From contig OY782392.1 of NCBI GenBank assembly GCA_963677765.1, positions 360,001 through 392,000 of the forward strand: DNA of 32,000 bases. The letters run 5' to 3'. The stretch's first letter is position 1. Each line of letters opens with the position of its first letter. A program made the translations under genes and the position numbers. The notes below the pieces were generated by a model. The model was not told the DNA's origin and ran no database searches. It saw nothing but the letters and a program-made list of their open reading frames with translations. The DNA comes from Candidatus Saccharimonadota bacterium (GTDB lineage: Bacteria > Patescibacteriota > Gracilibacteria > BD1-5 > UBA6164). Below, piece by piece: positions 5,055 through 18,213 of the stretch.

Positions 5055-5663
5055 ATGGAAAATTTAAACTTAAATGCTCAAATCAGAAAAGATGATGAGA
5101 AATTAAATGAAGTAAGAAACTCAAAGATGATACCAGCTGTAGTTTATGGTAAAAAACAAGAAGCTATAAAAATAAAAGTTGATTATTCTGAGTTTTTAAA
5201 ATTATTTAGAGTTTCTGGTGAATCACACATTATTAACTTAAATGTTGAATCTAAAAAAATAGAAGTATTAGTACATGAAGTACAATATGCTCCTATCAAC
5301 GGAAGTTATTTACATGTAGATTTCATAGCTGTTACTAAATGAGAAAAAGTACATACTAAAATTCACTTAGATTTTAAAGGTACTTCTAAAGCTGTAAAAG
5401 AAGGTGGTATATTAGAAGAACACTTAAAAGAAGTTGAGGTAAAAGTATTACCAAAAGATTTAGTTGACTCTATAGAAGTAGATTTATCTAAATTAGAAGA
5501 AATGGGAGACTCAATAAAAGTTTCTGACTTAAACGTAGATTCTTCTAAAATAGAAATTTTAAACAATAGTGATGATGTTGTTGCTATAGTTTCTAAACCT
5601 AAAAAATTAAAAGAAGAAGATGAAACTACTACTGAAGAAGTAGCTACAGAAGAAAATAAATAA
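5055..5663 (+). CDS. rplY: 50S ribosomal protein L25 / general stress protein Ctc
   Basis: MENLNLNAQIRKDDEKLNEVRNSKMIPAVVYGKK... followed by a Ctc-type C-terminal beta domain and an acidic tail. ATG 5055 chosen over the track start 4995. TAA 5661-5663. There is one in-frame TGA (5340-5342). Confidence 0.88.
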
Positions 5664-5728: not shown

Positions 5729-6049
5729 ATGAAAGTAAAATTATTTTGAACTGAAGAAAATACAAAAAACTTATTAACTAAAGTTGAAAGTTCTCTAGAT
5801 GAATTATGACTTAGAGATTTTATAGAATTAGAAATAACTAATGATGAATCTTTAAAAAATGAATTAAATATAGAAAAAGAACCTGCTCTAATTATAGAAG
5901 AAGAATCTATAGATTTTAAAGATACTATATTCGAATGAATTGAACCAAGTAATGAAGAAATAAAATCTATGTTTATAAGTATAATTTGATGATGAGAAGC
6001 TTGATGATCATGTGCACCAGGTGGATGTGGAAGTTGATGTAGTTGTTAA
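5729..6049 (+). CDS. Thioredoxin-fold (MTH895/Thioredoxin_3-like) protein lacking the N-terminal CxxC, with a Gly/Cys-rich C-terminal tail
   Basis: ATG 5729, TAA 6047-6049 (106 aa). MKVKLFGTEENTKNLL...EPALIIEE... matches the small thioredoxin-like pattern, but GTEEN replaces GxGCxxC. The tail is GGGEAGGSCAPGGCGSGCSC, with TGA TGA TGA at 5987-5995. Confidence 0.55.
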
Positions 6050-8787: not shown

Positions 8788-8851
8788 TTTTGCAAAAATA
8801 AAAAAAGAGTGTTAATATTAATTTATATTTAAATATTAAACTCTTTTTACT

Positions 8852-9244
8852 ATGCCAGAAAGTATATATTCACTTAAAATTTTTGAATGATTTGATAAAG
8901 AAATAATTGATAGTATTATAAACAATTGTGAAATAAGATATATTACTGCTTGAGAGATGATAATAGTTGAGTGAGAAGAATCAAATTGAGAATGATATAT
9001 TTTAAAAAGATGAAAAGTTTCTATCTCAATTAGATGAAATAGAATTGCAGAATTAAGCTCAGGTGATATTTTTTGAGAAATAGCTTTATTAAATGAGGAA
9101 GAAAGAACTGCAACAGTAACAGCAAGTACAGATATAGAAGTAATAGTTTTAAAACTAGAAAACTTAATAGAAATGATAAATAATGATGAAAACAAAATAA
9201 ATAAAACTATAATGAATAGAATAGAAGAAAATTTAAAAATGTAA
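8852..9244 (+). CDS. Stand-alone cyclic nucleotide-binding domain protein
   Basis: ATG 8852, TAA 9242-9244 (130 aa). ...GDIFGEIALLNEEERTATVTA... is the phosphate-binding cassette signature FGExALxxxxxRTATV. There is no attached output domain. Confidence 0.75.
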
Positions 9245-9245
9245 T

Positions 9246-9277
9246 AAAAAAACTATGATAAATATCATAGTTTTTTT
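9246..9277. terminator. Bidirectional intrinsic terminator
   Basis: AAAAAAACTATGAT AAAT ATCATAGTTTTTTT. It overlaps the tyrS stop codon at 9278-9276. Confidence 0.7.
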
Positions 9278-10556
9278 ATTTTAATATAATCCTAAAGTTT
9301 TTCTTACCTTTTCTAATAAGCATAAATTTATTATCAATAAAATTTACTGATACATCAAAGTTAAAATTATCTATTTTTTCTTCATTTATATATATAGCTC
9401 ATGATTTTACACTATTTCTTGAATTAGAATTTGAAGATTCTAATCAAGATTTAACTATTGTTTCAAATAAGTTTTCTCAATTATATATGAAACCTCACAT
9501 AGCTTCTTTAAATGTATTTAATTCTCATTCATCAAGAGATTTTAAAATTTCTAATTTATCTACATCTCAAAACATAAAATTAGATATTTTTTCAGATAAT
9601 TCAGCTTCTTTTGTTCAATGAATAATTTCAACAACCTTAAAAGCAAGTAATCTTTGTCATTCTCTGTTTTCTGGTTGAGCTAAGTGTTTTTTAACAATTT
9701 CATCTATTTCTTCAGTTTCAATTAAAGTAAGCATTTTCATATACCTTGATAAATCTTCATCAGAAGTATTCATAAAATATTGATATATAAAATATGGCGT
9801 AGTTTTTGTTTTATCTAAAAACATAGCATTTCACTCACTTTTACCAAACTTTTTTCAAGTAGAGTCAGTTATTAAAGGCCATGTTAAAGCATGAACTTCT
9901 TTTTCATATTTTTTTCTGATTAATTCAGTTCAAGTAACTAAGTTTCACCATTGATCTTGTCATCAAATTTGTAAAGAAACTCACATATCTTTACTTAATT
10001 TTGAATAATCATATCATTGTAATAATTGATATGAAAACTCTGTATAACTTATTGATTTTGTAGGATCTTCTATTCTTTTTTTAACATTATCCTTAGAAAT
10101 CATATTGTTAACAGTTATAAACTTTCAAACTTCTCTTAAAAAATCTAAATAATTCATATCAACATAGAAATCCTTATTGTTTACAAAATCATATTTAAAA
10201 TTGTCTCATGTAAAGTTTTCTAAGTTTATTAATACATTTGATATTTGATTTGATATCTTTTTTTGATTATTATCTAAATCATCCATAGATAAAAAACTTC
10301 TTTCACTATCTTTTCATCCAGGATCTCATATCATTCATGTAGCTCATCATGTTAAAGCTATATACTTGTTTCATCTTCTCATAAAATGAATTGCAACCAT
10401 AAATCATATAAAATTTCATAAGTGAAGTGAGTCAGCTGTAGGATCAAAACCACAATAAAAAACTCCTTCTCAATTATCAAATTTACTAAATAATTCATCA
10501 CTTGTATATTGATATAACAATCATCTATCTGATAATTCCTGTTTTAAACTTTTCAT
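9276..10556 (-). CDS. tyrS: Tyrosine--tRNA ligase
   Basis: ATG 10556 and TAA 9278-9276 are in frame (426 aa). [13 protein letters not shown] (HIGH), KFGKSEGNA (KMSKS) and a C-terminal S4-like domain are present, with many TGA-Gly codons. Confidence 0.93.
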
Positions 10557-11110: not shown

Positions 11111-11716
11111 ATGAAAGAATTAGATATATCTAAAATTTTTTGATCAAAATGTAGAACAAAACTTTTAGAAAAATTTTTTTTAGAATATGAGTCATGAAAT
11201 AATGATTGATTTCATATGAGATGACTAGCAAGAGATTTAGATGAACAAATAAACTCTATAAAAAGAGAGTTAGATAGCTTAACTGAATTATGAATATTAA
11301 AACATAAATTAGAATTAAGAAAAAAAATATTTTTTGTTAATCCAAAATTTTATTTAATAGATGATTTTACAAATATTTTTATAAAAACATATAATCCTTT
11401 AGATAAAGTTAAAAATTATTTCAAAAATAAACAAGATCTAGAGTTAATAATAATTAATGAAACTGTTAAAAATAAATTAATGACTCCTTGAAAATCTATA
11501 CTTGATATATTTTTAATATGAGAAATAGATAAAGAAGAGTTATGAAACTTTTTAGCAGAAACATTTTATTGAAGAAAAATAAAATATGCAATAATTACTA
11601 CAGAAGATTTCTATAGAAGACTTGAATTTTGAGATAAATTAATAAAAAACATATTAACTGAAAGATGAAACATATACCTTAGAGATAATATGAAAATAAA
11701 AGAAAAGTTATGATAA
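11111..11716 (+). CDS. Winged-helix (ArsR-like) DNA-binding protein with a C-terminal domain of unknown function
   Basis: ATG 11111, TAA 11714-11716 (201 aa). ...FHMRGLARDLDEQINSIKRELDSLTELGILK... is a typical wHTH recognition segment. Confidence 0.55.
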
Positions 11717-11748
11717 AAAAGAAGATAGATTTACTATCTTCTTTTTTT
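11715..11748. terminator. Bidirectional intrinsic terminator
   Basis: AAAAAAGAAGATAG ATTTA CTATCTTCTTTTTT. It overlaps the tsaD stop codon at 11749-11747. Confidence 0.7.
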
Positions 11749-12763
11749 ACATTTTAACAGCTCATATTTTATAAGTAAAGTTGTTATGTTTTATTTTATA
11801 ATAAGTTAATATTCAAACCATAGCAGCATTATCCATACAATAACTTATTTTTGTAGGATATATGAAATTAAGTCAATTTTGTGATGCAAGTTTTGATATA
11901 CTATCTTTTAGTTTATTATTAGCACTTACTCATCATGCTAACATTATAGTTTTCAAACTATGCTGTTTTGCAGCTTCAATAAGTTTCCATGACAAAACTT
12001 CCGTTACTGCATTTTCAAATTCATAACTAATTTCTCTTTTGTCATCTAAAGTTAACTCTCATTTTTCTGTTATTCTTTTATCTACTTCCCTTTTTACACT
12101 TGACTTTAATCATGAAAATGAAAAGTTAAACTCTCTTTTTACCAACCAAACTCTAGGAAAAAGATTGGTAGATTTTCATCATAAATCTTCATATTCTTTT
12201 GATAACTTTGATATAATAGGTCATCAAGGATATCATAATCACATCATTTTTGCAGCCTTATCGAAAGCCTCTCATCATGCATCATCAGAACTAGATCATA
12301 ATTTTTCCAATTCCCACATAGAATTCATTAGATAAATATCGTTATGTCCCCCTGAAACTGTAAGACAAGCTAAAGGAAATTTAATTTCAGACTCATCTCT
12401 ATCTAAAAAATTAGAAAATATATGAGCTTCAATATGATTTATAGGAATAATAGGTATATTTAAAACACTTGATATAGTTCAAGCAACTGTAGTTCATGTT
12501 AATAAAGATGGTAACAATCAGGGACTTGTTGTAACTCATATATAATCTATTTCATCCAATTTTATTCATGTTGAAGATAATACATTATCTAAAACCGAAA
12601 ATATAGAATTTGCATGTTCTCTAGCTGCAACCTCTGGAACAACTCATCAAGTTTCATTATGAATTTTAATTTGACTAGCTGTATCCATAAAGATTAATTT
12701 ATTATCTTCAAATAAAGCAATACTAGTATCATCACAACTTGTTTCAAAAGCCAAAATTTTCAT
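11747..12763 (-). CDS. tsaD: tRNA N6-adenosine threonylcarbamoyltransferase (Kae1/Gcp/TsaD)
   Basis: ATG 12763 and TAA 11749-11747 are in frame (338 aa). MKILAFETSCDDTSIAL..., INHIEAHI, SGGHN, DAGGEAFDKAAKMMGLGYPGGP and MLAGGVSAN are present. Confidence 0.92.
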
Positions 12764-12842: not shown

Positions 12843-12870
12843 TTGACTAAAATCAAAATTGTTTTATCAT
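12843..12870 (+). promoter_or_regulatory. Putative sigma70-type promoter of the CDP-alcohol phosphatidyltransferase gene
   Basis: TTGACT (12843-12848), 16 nt spacer, TATCAT (12865-12870). -10-like strings are common in DNA this AT-rich, so this is weak. Confidence 0.3.
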
Positions 12871-12902
12871 TAAAGTAGCAATTTTTCAACAGTAATTTAA
12901 AA

Positions 12903-12907
12903 GGAGG
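12903..12907 (+). promoter_or_regulatory. Canonical Shine-Dalgarno sequence
   Basis: AAAGGAGGT with GGAGG 6 nt upstream of ATG 12914. I could not find a comparably spaced GGAGG upstream of any other gene in the window. Confidence 0.7.
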
Positions 12908-12913
12908 TACTAA

Positions 12914-13702
12914 ATGGATAACATTGCAAAAGAAATAAATCTACTTTTTTCAATGTTTGAAGAAAATTTAATTCTTCAAATGGAGATTATAAGTAGTTTA
13001 ATAATAGTTAGTTTAGTTTTAGTACTAGTCTATTTTGGGCTAAAACTAAAAAAAGTAAGAAATTGCTTTGATTGCCATATATATGACAATGAGCCAACAA
13101 ACTTTAAAGAAAGATTAAACTTATACTTATCTGCTCCTCTTATGAGTGGAAACGGTATTTGTATGTGGAGAGTGTATCTCTCAATACCATTGGCAATTAT
13201 CACTGTTATAGTATATGATAACCAAATCCTTTCTTCTATTGTTCTACAAATATATGTTTTTCTTTTTGTGACAGATGCTCTAGATGGAGCTGTTGCAAGA
13301 AGTTTAAATAATGTAACAAATATAGGTAAAGTATTAGATCCATTTGCAGATAAGTTTTTGGATTTAGTAGTCTTGTCTATAGTTGTATATTTTTCTGAAA
13401 ATGTTTTTTTCATGATATCAACAGCTATAATAATAATCTTTGATATCATAGGACAAACAATAAGAGGAAAAACAAAAAATCCTGCTGCTAACTGGGTTGG
13501 AAAAACCAAAACTGTATTCAAAATAATAACAATCTATCTAATAAGCCTAAATAGATATGATTTGAATTTAGAGTACATTGGAACTATATTCATAACTATA
13601 AGCTTAATTTTTACTATTGCCTCTTTTTATCTAAAAGCAAAAGAAAAAATAAAAGCTAAGTTTGAAGCATTAAGAAGACTAGTTATAAAGGATTTAGTAT
13701 AA
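12914..13702 (+). CDS. CDP-alcohol phosphatidyltransferase family membrane protein
   Basis: Uninterrupted 262-aa ORF even in the standard code. It carries the signature DALDGAVARSLNNVTNIGKVLDPFADKFLD (DGx2ARx8Gx3Dx3D). All 9 Gly use GGN and both Trp use TGG. It has its own SD and a GC-rich terminator. Confidence 0.88.
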   Translation: MDNIAKEINLLFSMFEENLILQMEIISSLIIVSLVLVLVYFGLKLKKVRNCFDCHIYDNEPTNFKERLNLYLSAPLMSGNGICMWRVYLSIPLAIITVIVYDNQILSSIVLQIYVFLFVTDALDGAVARSLNNVTNIGKVLDPFADKFLDLVVLSIVVYFSENVFFMISTAIIIIFDIIGQTIRGKTKNPAANWVGKTKTVFKIITIYLISLNRYDLNLEYIGTIFITISLIFTIASFYLKAKEKIKAKFEALRRLVIKDLV

Positions 13703-13706
13703 ATTT

Positions 13707-13735
13707 AAAAGCCGCTTAAGCGGCTTTTTATTTTA
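13707..13735. terminator. Bidirectional intrinsic terminator with a GC-rich stem
   Basis: AAAAGCCGC TTAA GCGGCTTTTT. This is the only all-G/C stem core among the terminators in the window. It overlaps the M3 peptidase stop codon at 13735-13733. Confidence 0.8.
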
Positions 13736-15724
13736 TATTCAATATCTTTGCATAAATGCTTTATTATCTAAATCTCTTCACATAAAATCATAAAATAATT
13801 CTCATGCTTTTTTTCTAGTTCATTGTCATATAATAGTATTCAATAATTTTTGTCATGTTTCTGGAGAAAACATTCATAATTCTTTGATTCTTTCAAAAAC
13901 ATCAGCTTCTAGCATTTCTGCCCACATATATGAGTAATATCAAGCAGAATAACCTCATCAAAAAATATGATTAAATGAACAATACATCTTATAATCATTT
14001 CATCTCTCAAATATAGAATATTTATTAACAATTTCTAAAGTTTTTTTATCTAATTCTTCTATACTATTTGGAATATCTGATGAGTAAAGTGACATATCTA
14101 ATAATGAAAATTCATTTTGTCTTGCAACAAAAACTCAACTCATAAAATGTTTTAAACTTTCAAGTTTTGATATAAGTTCGTCACTTATATTTTCTCAAGT
14201 TTCTACATGTTTAGCTAATTTTTTTAAACTATTTTTATCACTTACCCAGTTTTCCATAAGCTGGCTTGGTAGCTCAACAAAATCCCGTTCTACTCAAAAT
14301 CATGATAATTCAGAATATTTACTTTGAGATAACAATTCATGTAAAGCATGTCAAAATTCATGAAATAAAGTTTCAACATCTCTCATATATAATGTAGTTT
14401 TTCAATAATTAGATTTTTGGAAATTACAAACATTTAATATAACAGGAACTATATTTTCTGGAAAATACTCTTTTGATCTCATATTATCTGCCCAAGCTCA
14501 AGGTCTTTTACCTTTTCTATAAAATGCATCTAAAAAATAATAAGAAATTAATTCACCTCATTTATATATTTCATAAATTCTTATATTTTCATTATAAGAT
14601 TCTTTTTTTAGTTCTTTTATTTCAATAGAATAAAATTTTTCAACAAAAGAAAATAAATAATTTAAAACATTTTCAAATTCAAAATATTTTTTTATTTCTT
14701 TTTCATCCAAACTATACTTTTCTTCTTTTAAAATTCTTGAATAATATGCTAAATCATGAGATTCTATATTATCTAAATTAAAATAACTCTTCAATTCAGA
14801 AATATCTCTATTAGCTTTTACTCTAGCTTTTTTAGATATACCCTCTACTAACTCAAATATTTGTTCAGGAGATTCAGCCATTTTAGAATTCAAACTTAAT
14901 TCTGCATAATTTTTATATCAAAGTATTTTAGCCTTTTCATCTTTTAGTTTTAAAATCTCTAAAATATTTTCTCTATTATCATATTTTCATTTTGATGCAG
15001 TTGTGTAAGAAGCTTTAGAAATATCTTTTCTAACATTAGTATCATGACAATATTTCATAAGGGCTTGATTACTTGTTGGATCAGCATCAAATAAATATCA
15101 TCATTTATCTTTTCATGCATCTTTTGCTATTTCTAATATTTCCGCTGGTAAATCTTTTATAATTTCAAAATCTGTAATAAGATATTCAAACTCTTTTTCT
15201 TCATCAACTATATTATTTGTAAACTTATCACTTAACTCTCATAGCTTTTTATTTATTTCTTTTATTCTATTTTGTTTGTCAGAACCTAAGTCTATTCATC
15301 TATCTTTAAATGCCTTTATTCTTAAATCCATTATCCTTCTTTGTTCATCATCTAACTCAAAATTTTCACTAACAAATAAATATTTTTCAAATAAATCCTT
15401 AGAATAAGCTACTTCATTTGAAAAGTCTTGTAATTCAGGCCTAAATGACTCAATTATACTTCTTAATTTGTCACTTGAATCAACATTTTCTAAATGATTT
15501 AATAAACTCCAAAAATAATCTAAAGAACTCTCATCTTCAAATGAATCAAAAGTTAAATCTTTATTATCAATCTTTAAAAGTTTTTCAAATTCTTGTTTTT
15601 CTTTTTCTAATAATTCTTTTAATAAATCCAAAGAAACATCTAAAACTTCTTCACTAAAAAGAAACTTTAAATCAGGAAAATTTTTATTTCTTAATTCATC
15701 TAATATTCTTTCTTTTAATTTCAT
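13733..15724 (-). CDS. M3-family zinc metallopeptidase (oligopeptidase A / peptidyl-dipeptidase Dcp-like)
   Basis: ATG 15724 and TAA 13735-13733 are in frame (663 aa). It joins track ORFs 15296..15724 and 14558..14893. The zinc motif [15 protein letters not shown] is at 14362-14348, in frame, with its Gly encoded by TGA. Confidence 0.88.
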
Positions 15725-15770: not shown

Positions 15771-15798
15771 AAAAACTAGATTTTACAATCTAGTTTTT
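15771..15798 (-). terminator. Intrinsic terminator of the large orphan gene
   Basis: On the minus strand: AAAAACTAGATT GTAA AATCTAGTTTTT followed by a T-rich run. The TAG stop (15792-15790) lies inside the stem. Confidence 0.6.
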
Positions 15799-18213
15799 AA
15801 TTTCAAAACTATCTAAAAATCCCTTTAAATAATCACTAAAAATTGAATCGAATAATCATTCGACAATAACTAACTTATTATATTTTTCAGAATAAAAAAT
15901 TTTTTGATATGTTGGATTTACATTACAAAAAGGATTTGGTCAATCTCAATCCTTATAATCAGGAAATTCTTCATAAAGTTTTTTAGTACTAACCGTTATA
16001 TCAATAGTAAAATAATCTTTATTATTTATGATGATTTTATCTGAAGCTCAACAATCCAATCAATATTTATTTTTGATAAATTTATCTAAATCTGAAAAGT
16101 CAGAAATATTATAAATAAATATATTAGTTCAAAATTCACTTTTTGTTTTATTATCTATGAATTTAATAAAATTATATCATTCATATATAGATACATCAAA
16201 CTCATCATATAAACTAAAAAAAGTATTAAATTTTATTCATTTATTATTATATATATCACTTAAAGGTTTATAATAACCATCTAAATAATAAAAATAACTC
16301 TTTTTCTCTTTTATTCATGAAGAATTAGATTTATAATATTCTATTTTAAGAATATCTCATAATAATTCATAAGATATAAACTCAGTGAAAATATTAGGTC
16401 AATCCTTTGGAGAAAAAATATTATTTATATCTAAATTATTATTTATTTCTAGTATAAAGGTACCTCAATAAGTATTTTGTTCTAAAATTATTTTTTCATC
16501 ATTTTTATAAATTTCTTTATAGTACAATAATCCTATTTCTTTTTTTTCTAGAGTATTAGTATTAAACAATATGGATTTTCATCACTCATAATAATACCTA
16601 TTAATTAAAAATATATCTCAATATAAATGATTAATATCTATTTTTTTTATTAATTCTCTTTGAATTTCATCTAAATCAATATCTGGTTTAACATCTCAGT
16701 TAGATATACAATAATTAAAATGATCACATGCATATCAAGGAGAAAAACTATCTAAATCATTTTTTTCTTCATATATAATATTTCAATCATATTCTACATA
16801 AGTTTTTTCATCATTTTGCAAAATATTAATATTATTAAATAATGAATCTTCATTATTTTTAATACTCTTGCTTGAAGTCAACTCTTGAGTTTCTAAAGCC
16901 TCTATTTTTTCTTCTATATTTTTTATTAAGTTAACTCTATTCTCATGAATTCTTTCCTCTTTTTCAAATAAATAATCATTATCATATGAATTTAATGAAA
17001 TAATTTTTCTTCAAATATAATTAGATATTCATTTATAATTAAATAAGTTTTCTTTAATTTTAATAAATATATCAGTTCCATTATTTTTATCTAAAAAATT
17101 ATATCAAATATAGTAATTTAATAATATAGTTTCTTCAGCTGAAAAAAACAAATTATTAGAAATTTTTTCTATTAATGTTCTATTCGAATAAGATTTTGTA
17201 TTATCTAATATTTCTGATGTAATATCTGTAATTCACAGTCAGTATTTTTTTAATTTTAATATATTTTCTTCAAATATTTTATATTCACGCTTTATTGGAT
17301 TAATAAGAAAATTCTCATCTATATAATTATTTTTAAAATAATATCTAATTTTATCTAAATTTTCTTTTCATAAATTATAATTATTAATAAAATATTCTAT
17401 TGTTAATAAATTATCATTATTATTATTTAATAAAATAAGAGATGGAAATATATCTGCATCAAATTTATTAATCAAATAATCTAAAAATTCCTGATTCTCT
17501 ATTATAATATCTACTCACATATCAATATTTCAAGATTCAATCAAGCTATAAGATAGATATCTTACAGCTCTGAAATAATCTATAGAGTAATCTTTCATAT
17601 TTAATTCTGAACTATAATCAATTGGATATAAAAAAAATTCATTTTTCATTATATCATCATAGTAATATTTATTTGTCTCATAAAACTCATTAAATAATAT
17701 TAATGATTTTTGTAAATCCTCTTTATATTTATTTTCAAAAAATTCTTCTTTATATGAATTAATTATATTATCTACTTCTTCAAGACTTAATCAATCTTCC
17801 CTATATTCTATTTTTATTTTTATTATTTCATTATTTTTATAATTTTCATAAATAGACTCTTCACATTTATTTTTATTATATATAATACAATCAATTTTAC
17901 TTCACAAAATTTTTAAGTGATTATAATTATCAAAATATAAACCATTATCTTTATCTAAAGATAGTAAATCTATACTATATGATTTTCAAAAAGATTCCAT
18001 AAATTTTTGATAATCTTCATATCAATTCTCTTCTGAATATATATCTTTATCTTGATATTTAGTATCAAAATATCATTTTGGAATATTAAAATCTGATTCT
18101 GTATAAAGGTTTTGTTTTGATAAATATAAAACTATAGAAAAAATAGTTATTAATAAAATAATAAAAAAGAAAATATATTTAAATATTTTTCATAAAAGTT
18201 TGATTTTATTCAT
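15790..18213 (-). CDS. Large (807 aa) N-terminally membrane-anchored protein of unknown function
   Basis: ATG 18213 and TAG 15792-15790 are in frame with TGA=Gly. TM segment IFKYIFFFIILLITIFSIVLYL, then an Asn/Tyr/Glu-rich sequence with no motif I recognise. Confidence 0.6.

What the first reader, a model, noticed from the sequence alone, without database searches (positions are those of the whole stretch)
12843..13735. A code-neutral gene cassette: the only TGA-free gene, with the only canonical Shine-Dalgarno sequence and the only GC-rich terminator
The CDP-alcohol phosphatidyltransferase gene (12914-13702) is the single long ORF that survives standard-code translation. All 9 Gly codons are GGN (GGA, GGT, GGG). 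In the neighbouring murA, about three quarters of Gly codons are TGA, and in-frame TGA is likewise common in tsaD and the M3 peptidase. The gene is preceded by AAAGGAGGT at optimal spacing (GGAGG 12903-12907). I could not find a similarly placed GGAGG upstream of any of the other roughly 32 genes. It is followed by a GCCGC/GCGGC-stem terminator, whereas the other clear intrinsic terminators have mostly A/T stems with at most 3 G-C pairs. By eye it is also less AT-rich and uses TTG Leu codons. Together this looks like a self-contained expression cassette that would be read identically in code 11 and code 25. That fits a recent horizontal acquisition from a standard-code donor (host bacterium or phage) that has not yet acquired the recipient codon signature. 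The roughly 100-aa N-terminal extension before the transferase domain matches nothing I recognise.
Basis: partly seen in the sequence, partly recalled or inferred. Interest (0 to 1): 0.7.

Follow-up and report, generated by a model that had tools for sequence, protein, structure and literature searches.

The report
Gene kept free of recoded UGA
[quoted passage not shown] It also carries classical promoter and ribosome-binding signals that its neighbours lack, so it is an old, actively maintained "standard-code" gene and not a recent import.

Summary
The window is a 21.7% GC, code-25 (UGA=Gly) Gracilibacteria genome. ORF 12914-13702 is a PgsA-like CDP-alcohol phosphatidyltransferase with 0 TGA among 9 Gly codons; the other 27 genes use TGA for 85% of Gly. 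It has the only Shine-Dalgarno site (-13.1 kcal/mol against -4.2 or weaker elsewhere), the only TTGAC[AT] -35 box within 120 nt upstream of a gene start, and the most GC-rich terminator.

The recent-HGT reading is refuted. Orthologues at 38-94% identity sit next to the same M3 peptidase, and in the closer clades also next to tsaD, in 17 code-25 genomes. No close standard-code or viral homologue was found.

All 17 orthologues keep 0 in-frame TGA (177 GGN), an SD, and (15/15 with enough upstream sequence) TTGACT. Neighbours switch freely between TGA and GGN. Six orthologues have TGA exactly where close relatives have TAA. The gene also uses CGA for invariant Arg, a codon absent from about 42,000 neighbouring codons. 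Its codon usage is unlike DnaK or L25.

Best reading: long-term purifying selection keeps a self-contained cassette readable under the standard code. Why is inferred only. The mRNA may need translating when UGA is not read as Gly, either in the cell itself or in a standard-code partner.

The parts
12843..12870 (+). Sigma-70-type promoter: TTGACT (-35, 12843-12848), 16-nt spacer, TATCAT (-10, 12865-12870)
   Evidence: Found by the consensus scan. TTGACT is present 55-72 nt upstream of the start in 15 of 15 orthologues with enough upstream sequence, including the 38%-identity clade and L005. None of the other 27 window genes has TTGAC[AT] within 120 nt upstream. Promoter function is inferred from conservation, not measured.
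12900..12908 (+). Shine-Dalgarno sequence AAAGGAGGT (GGAGG 12903-12907), 6 nt before the ATG
   Evidence: Duplex energy -13.1 kcal/mol against -4.2 or weaker for the 27 other genes. An SD-like motif (GGAGG, GGAGA or AAGGA) is kept in all 17 orthologues. 0 of 129 neighbour gene starts reach -5.5.
12914..13702 (+). CDS of 262 aa: a PgsA-like CDP-alcohol phosphatidyltransferase with no in-frame TGA and a TAA stop
   Evidence: PF01066 E 7.8e-21. TIGR00560 pgsA scores 82 bits, below the 109 cutoff. AlphaFold2 pLDDT 87.5; best fold match is S. aureus PgsA 7DRJ, TM 0.71. 0 TGA among 9 Gly codons here and 0 among 177 across 17 orthologues.
12914..13150 (+). Family-specific N-terminal extension (residues 1-79): amphipathic helix, predicted transmembrane helix, and a conserved KK(I/V)xECFxxHxYxxEP segment
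   Evidence: Conserved across the family alignment. Modelled with block pLDDT 84-94 as helices 2-17, 19-40, 46-49 and 64-73. Not covered by the Pfam match, which starts at residue 80.
13274..13351 (+). Catalytic motif D121-x2-D124-G125-x2-A128-R129-x8-G138-x3-D142-x3-D146
   Evidence: All motif residues are invariant in the 22-sequence family alignment. The Gly codons here are GGN in every orthologue.
13707..13728 (.). GC-rich intrinsic terminator hairpin with an A-tract before it and a T-tract after it, lying between the convergent CDS and the M3 peptidase gene (probably bidirectional)
   Evidence: 9-bp stem with 5 G-C pairs. GC-rich hairpins of different sequence sit at the same place in clades A and B and in L025 (-11 to -23 kcal/mol). 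They are absent in L016, L017, L019 and L024.
11747..12763 (-). Divergent neighbour tsaD (23 TGA, 2 GGN), used as a synteny anchor and native-codon control
   Evidence: PF00814 E 3.7e-76. Adjacent to the gene in 10 related loci.
13733..15724 (-). Convergent neighbour, an M3 peptidase gene (26 TGA, 5 GGN), used as a synteny anchor
   Evidence: PF01432/PF19310 annotations in related loci. Conserved downstream of the gene even in the 38%-identity clade.

Best explanation
Shown:
- The gene is a native, vertically inherited PgsA-like phospholipid synthase, found so far only in code-25 genomes.
- It is a monocistronic unit with its own canonical -35/-10 promoter, the only Shine-Dalgarno site in the region, and a terminator shared with the convergent peptidase gene.
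- Purifying selection has kept its reading frame free of UGA in every lineage examined.
- It tolerates standard-code features that the rest of the genome has purged: TGA at the stop position and CGA for arginine.
- It is therefore held in a form that reads the same whether UGA means glycine or stop.

Inferred, and much less certain:
- The selective reason is that this mRNA must stay translatable where UGA is not decoded as glycine.
- I think the most likely setting is a state of the Gracilibacteria cell itself. Examples are phage takeover, loss or cleavage of tRNA-Gly(UCA), or a ribosome-dependent toxin acting at UGA.
- A less likely setting is the cytoplasm of a standard-code partner cell.
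- The promoter and SD may simply be this gene's working expression signals, conserved because the gene is monocistronic and depends on them.
For: Vertical inheritance:
- Same tsaD / gene / M3 peptidase order in related code-25 genomes. Convergent M3 peptidase is kept in the distant clade.
- In L005 two native genes are inserted upstream, and the promoter, SD and GTG start moved with the gene.

Selection against UGA:
- 0 in-frame TGA among 177 Gly codons in 17 orthologues.
- In neighbour genes, 126 of about 216 invariant-Gly columns mix TGA and GGN among 11 or fewer species, and only 4 are all-GGN.
- Synonymous codon identity in this gene is lower than in its neighbours, so synonymous sites do turn over.
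- Avoidance is frame-specific: 0 in-frame TGA against 53 and 94 out-of-frame.
- L016 has normal GC3 (0.09) and still 0 TGA among 10 Gly codons.

Not a high-expression signature:
- DnaK and L25 prefer GGT, ATT and ACT and avoid G-ending codons.
- This gene prefers GGA and is enriched in TTG, AGG, CTC, CTG and GGC.

Standard-code traits:
- First stop under code 11 is TAA in 9, TAG in 1 and TGA in 6 orthologues, with at least 3 switches on the tree. L006 (TGA) and L009 (TAA) are identical across the last six codons and differ at one base in the next 60 nt.
- CGA occurs 7-8 times at invariant Arg or K/R columns, against 0 in 41,951 neighbour codons, p = 2e-8.

Signals: SD in 17/17 orthologues against 0/129 neighbour starts; TTGACT in 15/15 against 0/27.

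Precedent: most phages predicted to infect Gracilibacteria lack in-frame TGA (PMC10746230).
Against: - No direct evidence exists for any cellular state in which UGA decoding fails.
- prfB is reported absent from BD1-5 genomes (PMC6851277). A TGA at the stop position would then be read through, or would stall the ribosome, in the native cell.
- An impaired-UGA state does not explain the raised GC3, the CGA use or the rare GC-rich codons.
- Highly expressed genes can also lose TGA: DnaK in L024 has 0 TGA among 57 Gly codons. Ordinary codon selection can therefore produce TGA-free genes.
- The anti-SD of these organisms was not examined. Sister lineages reportedly lack CCUCC (PMC10783764), so it is unknown whether the SD works in the native cell.
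- Only about 300 kb of related sequence was surveyed, so how rare such genes are genome-wide is not established.
Confidence: 0.55

Rival explanations
1. Ancient foreign origin plus ordinary selection. The cassette entered the ancestor of these code-25 lineages from a standard-code, SD-using source. Its promoter and SD persist because they work. UGA is excluded because it is the less efficient or less processive Gly codon and this gene is strongly translated or intolerant of truncated products. TGA at the stop is a tolerated stop-loss.
For: - TGA use falls in highly expressed genes: L25 has 15 TGA against 20 GGN at invariant Gly; DnaK has 0/57 in L024 and 13/53 in L025.
- Low-level UGA mistranslation is reported in BD1-5 (PMC4032931).
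- L024 and L025 hold other SD-led, TGA-free ORFs with TTGAC[AT] boxes (7 of 8), which suggests a pool of standard-type genes.
- The C-terminal tail of the protein varies in length.
Against: - The gene's codon usage is the opposite of the DnaK/L25 optimum: GGA rather than GGT, many G-ending and rare codons, and CGA.
- Exclusion is absolute (0/177) and stronger than in a ribosomal protein or in DnaK of L025.
- Non-conserved Gly positions also avoid TGA, so missense cost at critical residues cannot explain it.
- Other membrane proteins use TGA freely; PrsW has 13 of 16.
- Read-through tails of 15-82 codons run through the terminator, and in several orthologues into the antisense of the next gene.
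Confidence: 0.2
2. Host-directed cassette. The gene is kept in standard bacterial form (sigma-70 promoter, SD, standard code, intrinsic terminator) because its selected function is exercised in a standard-code partner or host cell after transfer of DNA or RNA. The logic is that of Agrobacterium T-DNA genes, which carry plant expression signals.
For: It is the only hypothesis that accounts for all the codon-level and signal-level features together:
- no in-frame TGA;
- TAA, TAG and TGA used interchangeably as the stop;
- CGA read as Arg;
- balanced, lineage-variable GC3 (0.09-0.37);
- SD and -35 box absent from native genes;
- GC-rich terminators.
Sister lineages reportedly lack the CCUCC anti-SD. 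Gracilibacteria are inferred to be host-dependent and to lack lipid synthesis.
Against: - No delivery mechanism is known.
- No copy was seen in any non-Gracilibacteria context.
- A polytopic lipid synthase is also exactly what the symbiont's own membrane needs.
- The prior probability is very low.
Confidence: 0.1
3. Recent horizontal acquisition from a standard-code donor that has not yet adjusted to the recipient genome.
For: The gene is compositionally atypical within the window: highest GC3, no TGA, an SD and a GC-rich terminator.
Against: - Syntenic orthologues exist in 17 code-25 genomes down to 38% identity.
- No close standard-code or viral homologue was found.
- Synonymous sites are saturated.
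- There are no mobility genes at the locus.
Confidence: 0.03
4. A local GC-favouring process, such as biased gene conversion at a recombination hotspot, drives AT-to-GC changes in this gene: TGA to GGA, TAA to TGA, AGA to CGA, and GC-ending codons.
For: All the deviations are in the AT-to-GC direction: raised GC3, CGA, CTC, GGC, TGA at the stop, and GC-rich hairpins.
Against: - It cannot give absolute TGA exclusion while AGA stays about 92% of AGA+CGA and AAA stays 84%.
- L016 has GC3 of 0.09 and still 0 TGA among 10 Gly codons.
- It does not explain the SD or the -35 box.
- It may still be a contributing factor.
Confidence: 0.05

Closest known systems
Code-11-compatible phages predicted to infect Gracilibacteria and Absconditabacteria (Liu et al. 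2023, mBio, PMC10746230)
   Same: These are genetic elements associated with code-25 hosts whose genes have no in-frame TGA. They use TGA as one of several stop codons, backed up by other stops, and so read the same under both codes.
   Different: Those are whole phage genomes, and the proposed explanation is broad host range. Here it is a single chromosomal gene of housekeeping type, syntenic and vertically inherited. It has no phage hallmark genes nearby and no viral homologue. Its backup stops lie 15-31 codons downstream (82 in L011), not close by.
Standard-code-compatible early genes in stop-codon-recoded phages (Borges et al., bioRxiv 10.1101/2021.08.26.457843; seen only as a search hit, content from my own knowledge)
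   Same: A subset of genes is kept free of the reassigned codon because they must be expressed while the other decoding regime is in force.
   Different: That case is a phage in a standard-code host, with timing of infection as the rationale. This case is a cellular gene in a recoded host, and no second decoding regime has been demonstrated.
S. aureus phosphatidylglycerophosphate synthase PgsA (PDB 7DRJ)
   Same: Same fold (TM 0.71 normalised to the target, rmsd 3.1 Å, 26% identity) and a complete CDP-alcohol phosphotransferase motif.
   Different: It has an extra conserved N-terminal region of about 80 aa with an added helix pair and a Cys/His motif. It scores below the PgsA equivalog cutoff (82 against 109 bits). 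The head-group substrate is unknown.
rpsU (bS21) of Flavobacteriia, the rare SD-bearing gene in an SD-poor lineage (from my own knowledge, not checked here)
   Same: A lone, strongly conserved SD in a lineage that otherwise does not use SD. It marks a gene translated under a special ribosome state.
   Different: That case is autoregulation of a ribosomal protein that occludes the anti-SD. Gracilibacteria reportedly lack bS21 (PMC9297842), and this gene is a membrane enzyme.
ACA-less mRNAs that escape the MazF toxin (from my own knowledge)
   Same: Transcripts kept free of one triplet so that they remain expressible when a stress or defence factor disables all mRNAs containing it.
   Different: MazF avoidance is independent of reading frame. 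Here only in-frame TGA is avoided, which points to the decoding step and not to an RNA sequence motif.

Membership tests
CDP-alcohol phosphatidyltransferase (Pfam PF01066) | Profile match above the gathering score | tested here: met
   75.5 bits against a cutoff of 22, E 7.8e-21, residues 80-235.
CDP-alcohol phosphatidyltransferase (Pfam PF01066) | Signature D-x2-DG-x2-AR-x8-G-x3-D-x3-D | tested here: met
   D121, D124, G125, A128, R129, G138, D142 and D146 are invariant in 22 family members (sequence).
CDP-alcohol phosphatidyltransferase (Pfam PF01066) | Polytopic helical fold of solved family members | tested here: met
   AlphaFold2 pLDDT 87.5, pTM 0.81, all-helical. Top PDB matches are PgsA, PIP synthases and PSS, and AF2299.
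PgsA equivalog (NCBIfam TIGR00560) | Score at or above the curated equivalog cutoff | tested here: not met
   82.1 bits against a cutoff of 109.1. I call it PgsA-like. The head-group specificity is not established.
Recently transferred foreign gene or genomic island | Absent from the same locus in related genomes | tested here: not met
   Present at the tsaD/M3 peptidase locus in all related loci recovered.
Recently transferred foreign gene or genomic island | Nearest homologues belong to another (standard-code) taxon | tested here: not met
   Every family member whose genomic context was examined lies in a code-25 genome. The next hits are at 30-36% identity.
Recently transferred foreign gene or genomic island | Atypical composition relative to the host genome | tested here: met
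   No TGA, highest GC3, rare GC-rich codons and CGA. The same signature is present in all orthologues, so it is not a sign of recent arrival.
Code-11-compatible phage gene (Liu et al. 2023) | No in-frame TGA; TGA stops backed by other stops | tested here: met
   0 of 177 Gly codons are TGA. Six orthologues have TGA at the stop position, followed by TAA or TAG 15-31 codons later.
Code-11-compatible phage gene (Liu et al. 2023) | Located on a phage or prophage, or has viral homologues | tested here: not met
   No relative in IMG/VR. The only PHROG hit is a generic CDP-OH transferase family of unknown function. The flanks are core genes.
Highly expressed gene under translational codon selection | Codon usage resembles ribosomal-protein and chaperone genes of the same genomes | tested here: not met
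   DnaK and L25: GGT 0.45-0.70, TTG 0, AGG 0, AAG 0.08 or less. This gene: GGA 0.52, TTG 0.22, AGG 0.27, and CGA present.
Shine-Dalgarno-led gene | The organism's 16S rRNA carries a complementary anti-SD | not testable with these tools
   No 16S rRNA is present in the 317 kb held. Sister lineages (SR1, Peribacteria) reportedly lack CCUCC.

The most novel reading that the evidence does not exclude
The gene is not merely compatible with the standard code but is actually decoded by it, with UGA as its stop codon and CGA as arginine. That would mean one of two things. Either a symbiont-borne cassette is expressed inside a standard-code host bacterium, a bacterial counterpart of T-DNA. Or UGA terminates translation in a context-dependent way in bacteria that lack RF2.
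Probability: 0.12. Interest if true: 0.95.

Novelty: new variant of a known kind. Interest (0 to 1): 0.78.

Why it matters
Codon reassignment is usually treated as genome-wide. Once UGA means glycine, mutation pressure spreads it through every gene. Here one chromosomal gene family, found so far only in recoded genomes, has resisted the new codon across its whole observable history. It also keeps classical promoter and ribosome-binding signals that the rest of the genome has abandoned.

This gives a concrete, testable handle on several questions:
- whether recoded bacteria pass through states in which the reassigned codon cannot be read (phage takeover, tRNA loss, toxins);
- why most phages predicted to infect Gracilibacteria avoid TGA;
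- whether these uncultured episymbionts carry genes meant to work under another cell's rules.

Practically, the cassette should express unmodified in E. coli. That would make it one of the few Gracilibacteria proteins that can be studied directly. It is also a marker that annotation pipelines mishandle, for example by adding C-terminal extensions through the terminator.

Tried and rejected
- **Overlapping antisense gene (13030-13521, minus strand, 163 aa).** Rejected. That antisense frame is open for 57-248 codons in essentially all window genes, and the ORF is not conserved in L004.
- **Known structured RNA in or around the gene.** No Rfam match at gathering score in the window or three related loci.
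- **RNA-level or recent-introgression constraint.** Rejected. Synonymous codon identity is lower than in the neighbours.
- **Avoidance of the TGA triplet as a DNA or RNA motif.** Rejected. Out-of-frame TGA is present, about as dense as in the neighbours in one frame and about half as dense in the other.
- **Phage or mobile origin.** No IMG/VR relative and no informative PHROG hits for this gene or for the other SD-led small ORFs.
- **The 358-aa SD-led ORF of L024.** It is an orphan.
- **A second, canonical PgsA in Gracilibacteria.** The candidate P0109 turned out to belong to a code-4 genome, where TGA aligns with Trp in MetK. This question remains open.
- **Expression evidence.** The Gracilibacteria metaproteome paper's held supplements do not mention the protein.
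- **Prior literature.** Four searches found no report of UGA-free chromosomal genes in code-25 bacteria. Campbell et al. 2013 was not available.
- **Promoter consensus scanning.** Uninformative in this AT-rich DNA: 135 sites found against 141 expected. Only cross-species conservation gave signal.
- **Anti-SD check.** Could not be done because no 16S rRNA is in the held sequence.
Full report
**1. What is in the window**

The window is 21.7% GC. Under the standard code it holds only two ORFs of 150 aa or more: 12914-13702(+) and its own antisense shadow. With TAA and TAG as the only stops, 28 genes appear. In the 27 others, TGA supplies 459 of 540 Gly codons, or 85%. Among orthologues, TGA alternates with GGN at invariant glycine columns. 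The code is therefore 25 (UGA = Gly), and related contigs are labelled Candidatus Gracilibacteria.

The target ORF has 0 TGA and 9 GGN, P about 4e-8. Its GC3 of 0.18 is the highest in the window.

The target also carries three expression signals that stand out in the window.
- AAAGGAGGT sits six bases before its ATG. The duplex energy with a canonical anti-SD is -13.1 kcal/mol. It is -4.2 or weaker for every other gene, including the ribosomal protein L25 gene.
- A TTGACT-N16-TATCAT promoter lies at 12843-12870. No other window gene has TTGAC[AT] within 120 nt upstream.
- The hairpin at 13707-13728 has 5 G-C pairs. All other terminator-like sites found in 6000-32000 have 3-4.

**2. The protein**

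- Pfam PF01066 matches residues 80-235.
- The full D-x2-DG-x2-AR-x8-G-x3-D-x3-D motif is present and invariant in the family.
- The best curated model is pgsA (TIGR00560), but at 82 bits it falls below the 109-bit equivalog cutoff.
- An AlphaFold2 model (pLDDT 87.5) matches S. aureus PgsA 7DRJ best, with TM 0.71.
- The first 79 or so residues are a conserved, family-specific extension. It consists of an amphipathic helix, a predicted transmembrane helix and an ECFxxHxYxxEP segment.

I call it a PgsA-like CDP-alcohol phosphatidyltransferase. Its head-group substrate is unknown.

**3. It is not a recent import**

A search of 5.8 billion proteins returned about 43 full-length relatives at 47-94% identity, all covering the N-terminal extension. 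A second tier lies at 35-42%. Beyond that there are only generic PgsA hits at 30-36%.

DNA for 17 distinct orthologues was recovered.
- In the closer clades the gene lies between tsaD and a convergent M3 peptidase gene, as here. The same further neighbours are present too: TyrRS, a cNMP-binding protein, UDG and Mg chelatase.
- In the 38%-identity clade the gene still converges on the M3 peptidase.
- Identities to the window rank like those of the neighbouring genes.
- Every neighbourhood is rich in TGA, so every one is code 25.
- No relative exists in IMG/VR viral contigs.
- In L005 two native genes, one with 79 TGA, have been inserted between tsaD and the gene. The TTGACT promoter, the SD and a GTG start moved with the gene.

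**4. The signature is lineage-wide and maintained by selection**

Across the 17 orthologues there are 177 GGN glycine codons and no in-frame TGA before the first TAA, TAG or TGA. The neighbours turn over quickly. About 126 of 216 invariant-Gly columns mix TGA and GGN among 11 or fewer species, and only 4 are all-GGN.

The gene's own synonymous sites are not frozen. Codon identity at identical residues is 0.36-0.74, lower than in its neighbours. Avoidance is frame-specific: 0 in-frame TGA against 53 and 94 in the other two frames. It is also separable from GC3, because L016 has GC3 of 0.09 and still 0 TGA among 10 Gly codons.

An SD-like motif is present in all 17 orthologues and at 0 of 129 neighbour gene starts. 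TTGACT is present in 15 of 15 orthologues with enough upstream sequence. GC-rich hairpins of unrelated sequence occupy the same position in most clades, but not in L016, L017, L019 or L024.

**5. Further standard-code traits**

*TGA at the stop position.* In six orthologues (L006, L007, L008, L020, L014, L024), and also in the partial L011, a TGA sits where relatives have TAA.
- L006 and L009 are identical across the last six codons and differ at one base in the next 60 nt, apart from TGA against TAA.
- The NJ tree needs at least three switches, in both directions.
- Sequence after the TGA is not conserved in frame; L007 and L008 differ by a 1-nt indel there.
- That sequence contains the terminator hairpin. 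The next TAA or TAG lies 15-31 codons on (82 in L011), mostly beyond the T-tract.
- None of 129 neighbour orthologues shows such an extension.

*CGA for arginine.* CGA is absent from 41,951 neighbour codons, and from 5,280 more in L024 and L025. It occurs 7-8 times in this gene. The sites are invariant Arg columns (R86 and R184) or K/R columns, in different orthologues at different positions, p = 2e-8. Shulgina and Eddy report CGA and CGG reassigned to Trp in Absconditabacteria, and CGG possibly in some Gracilibacteria (PMC8629427).

*Rare GC-rich codons.* CTC is enriched 34-fold, GGC 13-fold, and CTG and TGC 7-fold.

**6. Is it just high expression?**

TGA is under-used in genes expected to be highly expressed. 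L25 has 15 TGA against 20 GGN at invariant Gly. DnaK has 0 TGA of 57 in L024 and 13 of 53 in L025.

But those genes favour GGT, ATT and ACT and avoid G-ending codons. They have no SD. DnaK of L025 has a TTGACA box upstream, whereas DnaK of L024 and L25 do not.

The target prefers GGA, the mutationally favoured GGN, and is enriched in rare codons. Its pattern is "TGA forbidden", not "optimal codons preferred".

**7. A wider class?**

L024 and L025 contain several small SD-led, TGA-free ORFs, and 7 of 8 have TTGAC[AT] boxes upstream. One is a 358-aa ORF ending TGA-TGA-TAA. They are orphans. In the window's own clade, the target is the only such gene in about 20 kb per genome.

**8. Interpretation**

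Shown: this is a native, ancient gene family, seen only in code-25 genomes, held by purifying selection in a self-contained cassette that can be read under the standard code.

Inferred: the mRNA must be translatable where UGA is not glycine. The closest precedent is the finding that most phages predicted to infect Gracilibacteria have no in-frame TGA (PMC10746230).
- A state of impaired UGA decoding in the cell itself is my preferred reason. It does not explain CGA, the rare codons, or TGA as a stop in organisms without RF2.
- Expression in a standard-code partner cell explains every feature but has no known mechanism.
- Ancient foreign legacy plus ordinary translational selection, and local GC-biased conversion, each explain part of the pattern.
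- Whether the SD can pair with the native ribosome is unknown. Sister lineages reportedly lack CCUCC, and no 16S sequence was available.

**9. Verdict**

The recent-HGT interpretation is refuted. The "code-neutral cassette" description is upheld and extended to a lineage-wide, selected trait. I found no prior report of such a chromosomal gene in four literature searches.

Noticed in passing
window 5055-5663 (+): The ribosomal protein L25/TL5 gene has only 1 TGA among 8 Gly codons. Its orthologues have 2-5 TGA (15 TGA against 20 GGN at invariant Gly). UGA therefore appears to be a disfavoured Gly codon in highly expressed genes of code-25 bacteria. DnaK in L024 has 0 TGA of 57.
   Followed up: partly
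all neighbour genes in window and L004-L025: Codon CGA is completely absent from about 47,000 codons of ordinary genes. CGG occurs about 4 times and CGC about 2. This suggests CGA is unassigned or undecodable in these Gracilibacteria. Compare the CGA/CGG-to-Trp reassignment reported for Absconditabacteria.
   Followed up: partly
L024 4076-5205, 12240-12509, 14776-15852; L025 647-889, 3094-3842: Several small orphan ORFs, plus one of 358 aa ending TGA-TGA-TAA, have an SD-like site and no in-frame TGA. Seven of eight have a TTGAC[AT] -35 box upstream. This may be a minority class of standard-style genes in code-25 genomes.
   Followed up: partly
window 11111-11716 (+) and orthologues: The 201-aa hypothetical gene ends with TGA immediately followed by TAA in most species, with AAT or TCA in others. 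It could be a terminal Gly or a relic tandem stop. In three loci a TAA-to-AAA change adds two residues.
   Followed up: no
L005, L006, L009, L010: first 15 nt after the stop codon of the orthologue: A GGAGG motif (aaaaaggaggaaaa) sits directly after the stop codon, upstream of the terminator hairpin. This is a second SD-like element in genomes that otherwise lack them. Its purpose is unknown, and it is absent in the window.
   Followed up: no
L001/L004 about 8844-10384 (L001 coordinates), corresponding to window 15790-18213: Downstream of the M3 peptidase, the 78%-identity relative carries a reverse transcriptase plus a bAvd gene (a likely diversity-generating retroelement). The window has an 807-aa hypothetical gene there, so this is a variable spot.
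   Followed up: no
L005 6996-9862: An 821-aa type IV pilin-like gene (79 TGA) and a small lipoprotein gene are inserted between tsaD and the cassette in one species. The NCBI annotation of that orthologue (P0031, 183 aa) misses the GTG start.
   Followed up: yes
L026 (P0045, 1376-bp scaffold): A predicted protein joins 63 residues of this family to a DUF5131 (phage Gp37/Gp68) domain. It is probably an assembly chimera or a junction with a mobile element.
   Followed up: partly
window 5729-6049 (+): A 106-aa protein has a Gly/Cys-rich C-terminal tail (...GGGEAGGSCAPGGCGSGCSC). Its Gly codons switch heavily between TGA and GGN among species (9/3 here, 2/9 in L007). It has no Pfam match.
   Followed up: no
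L007, L008, L011, L014, L020 (database proteins P0005-P0010, P0013, P0014, P0019): Public annotations of the TGA-stop orthologues differ by prediction code. Lengths run from 248-251 aa to 269-417 aa. Some carry W or G at the TGA and tails that run through the terminator into the antisense of the peptidase gene.
   Followed up: yes
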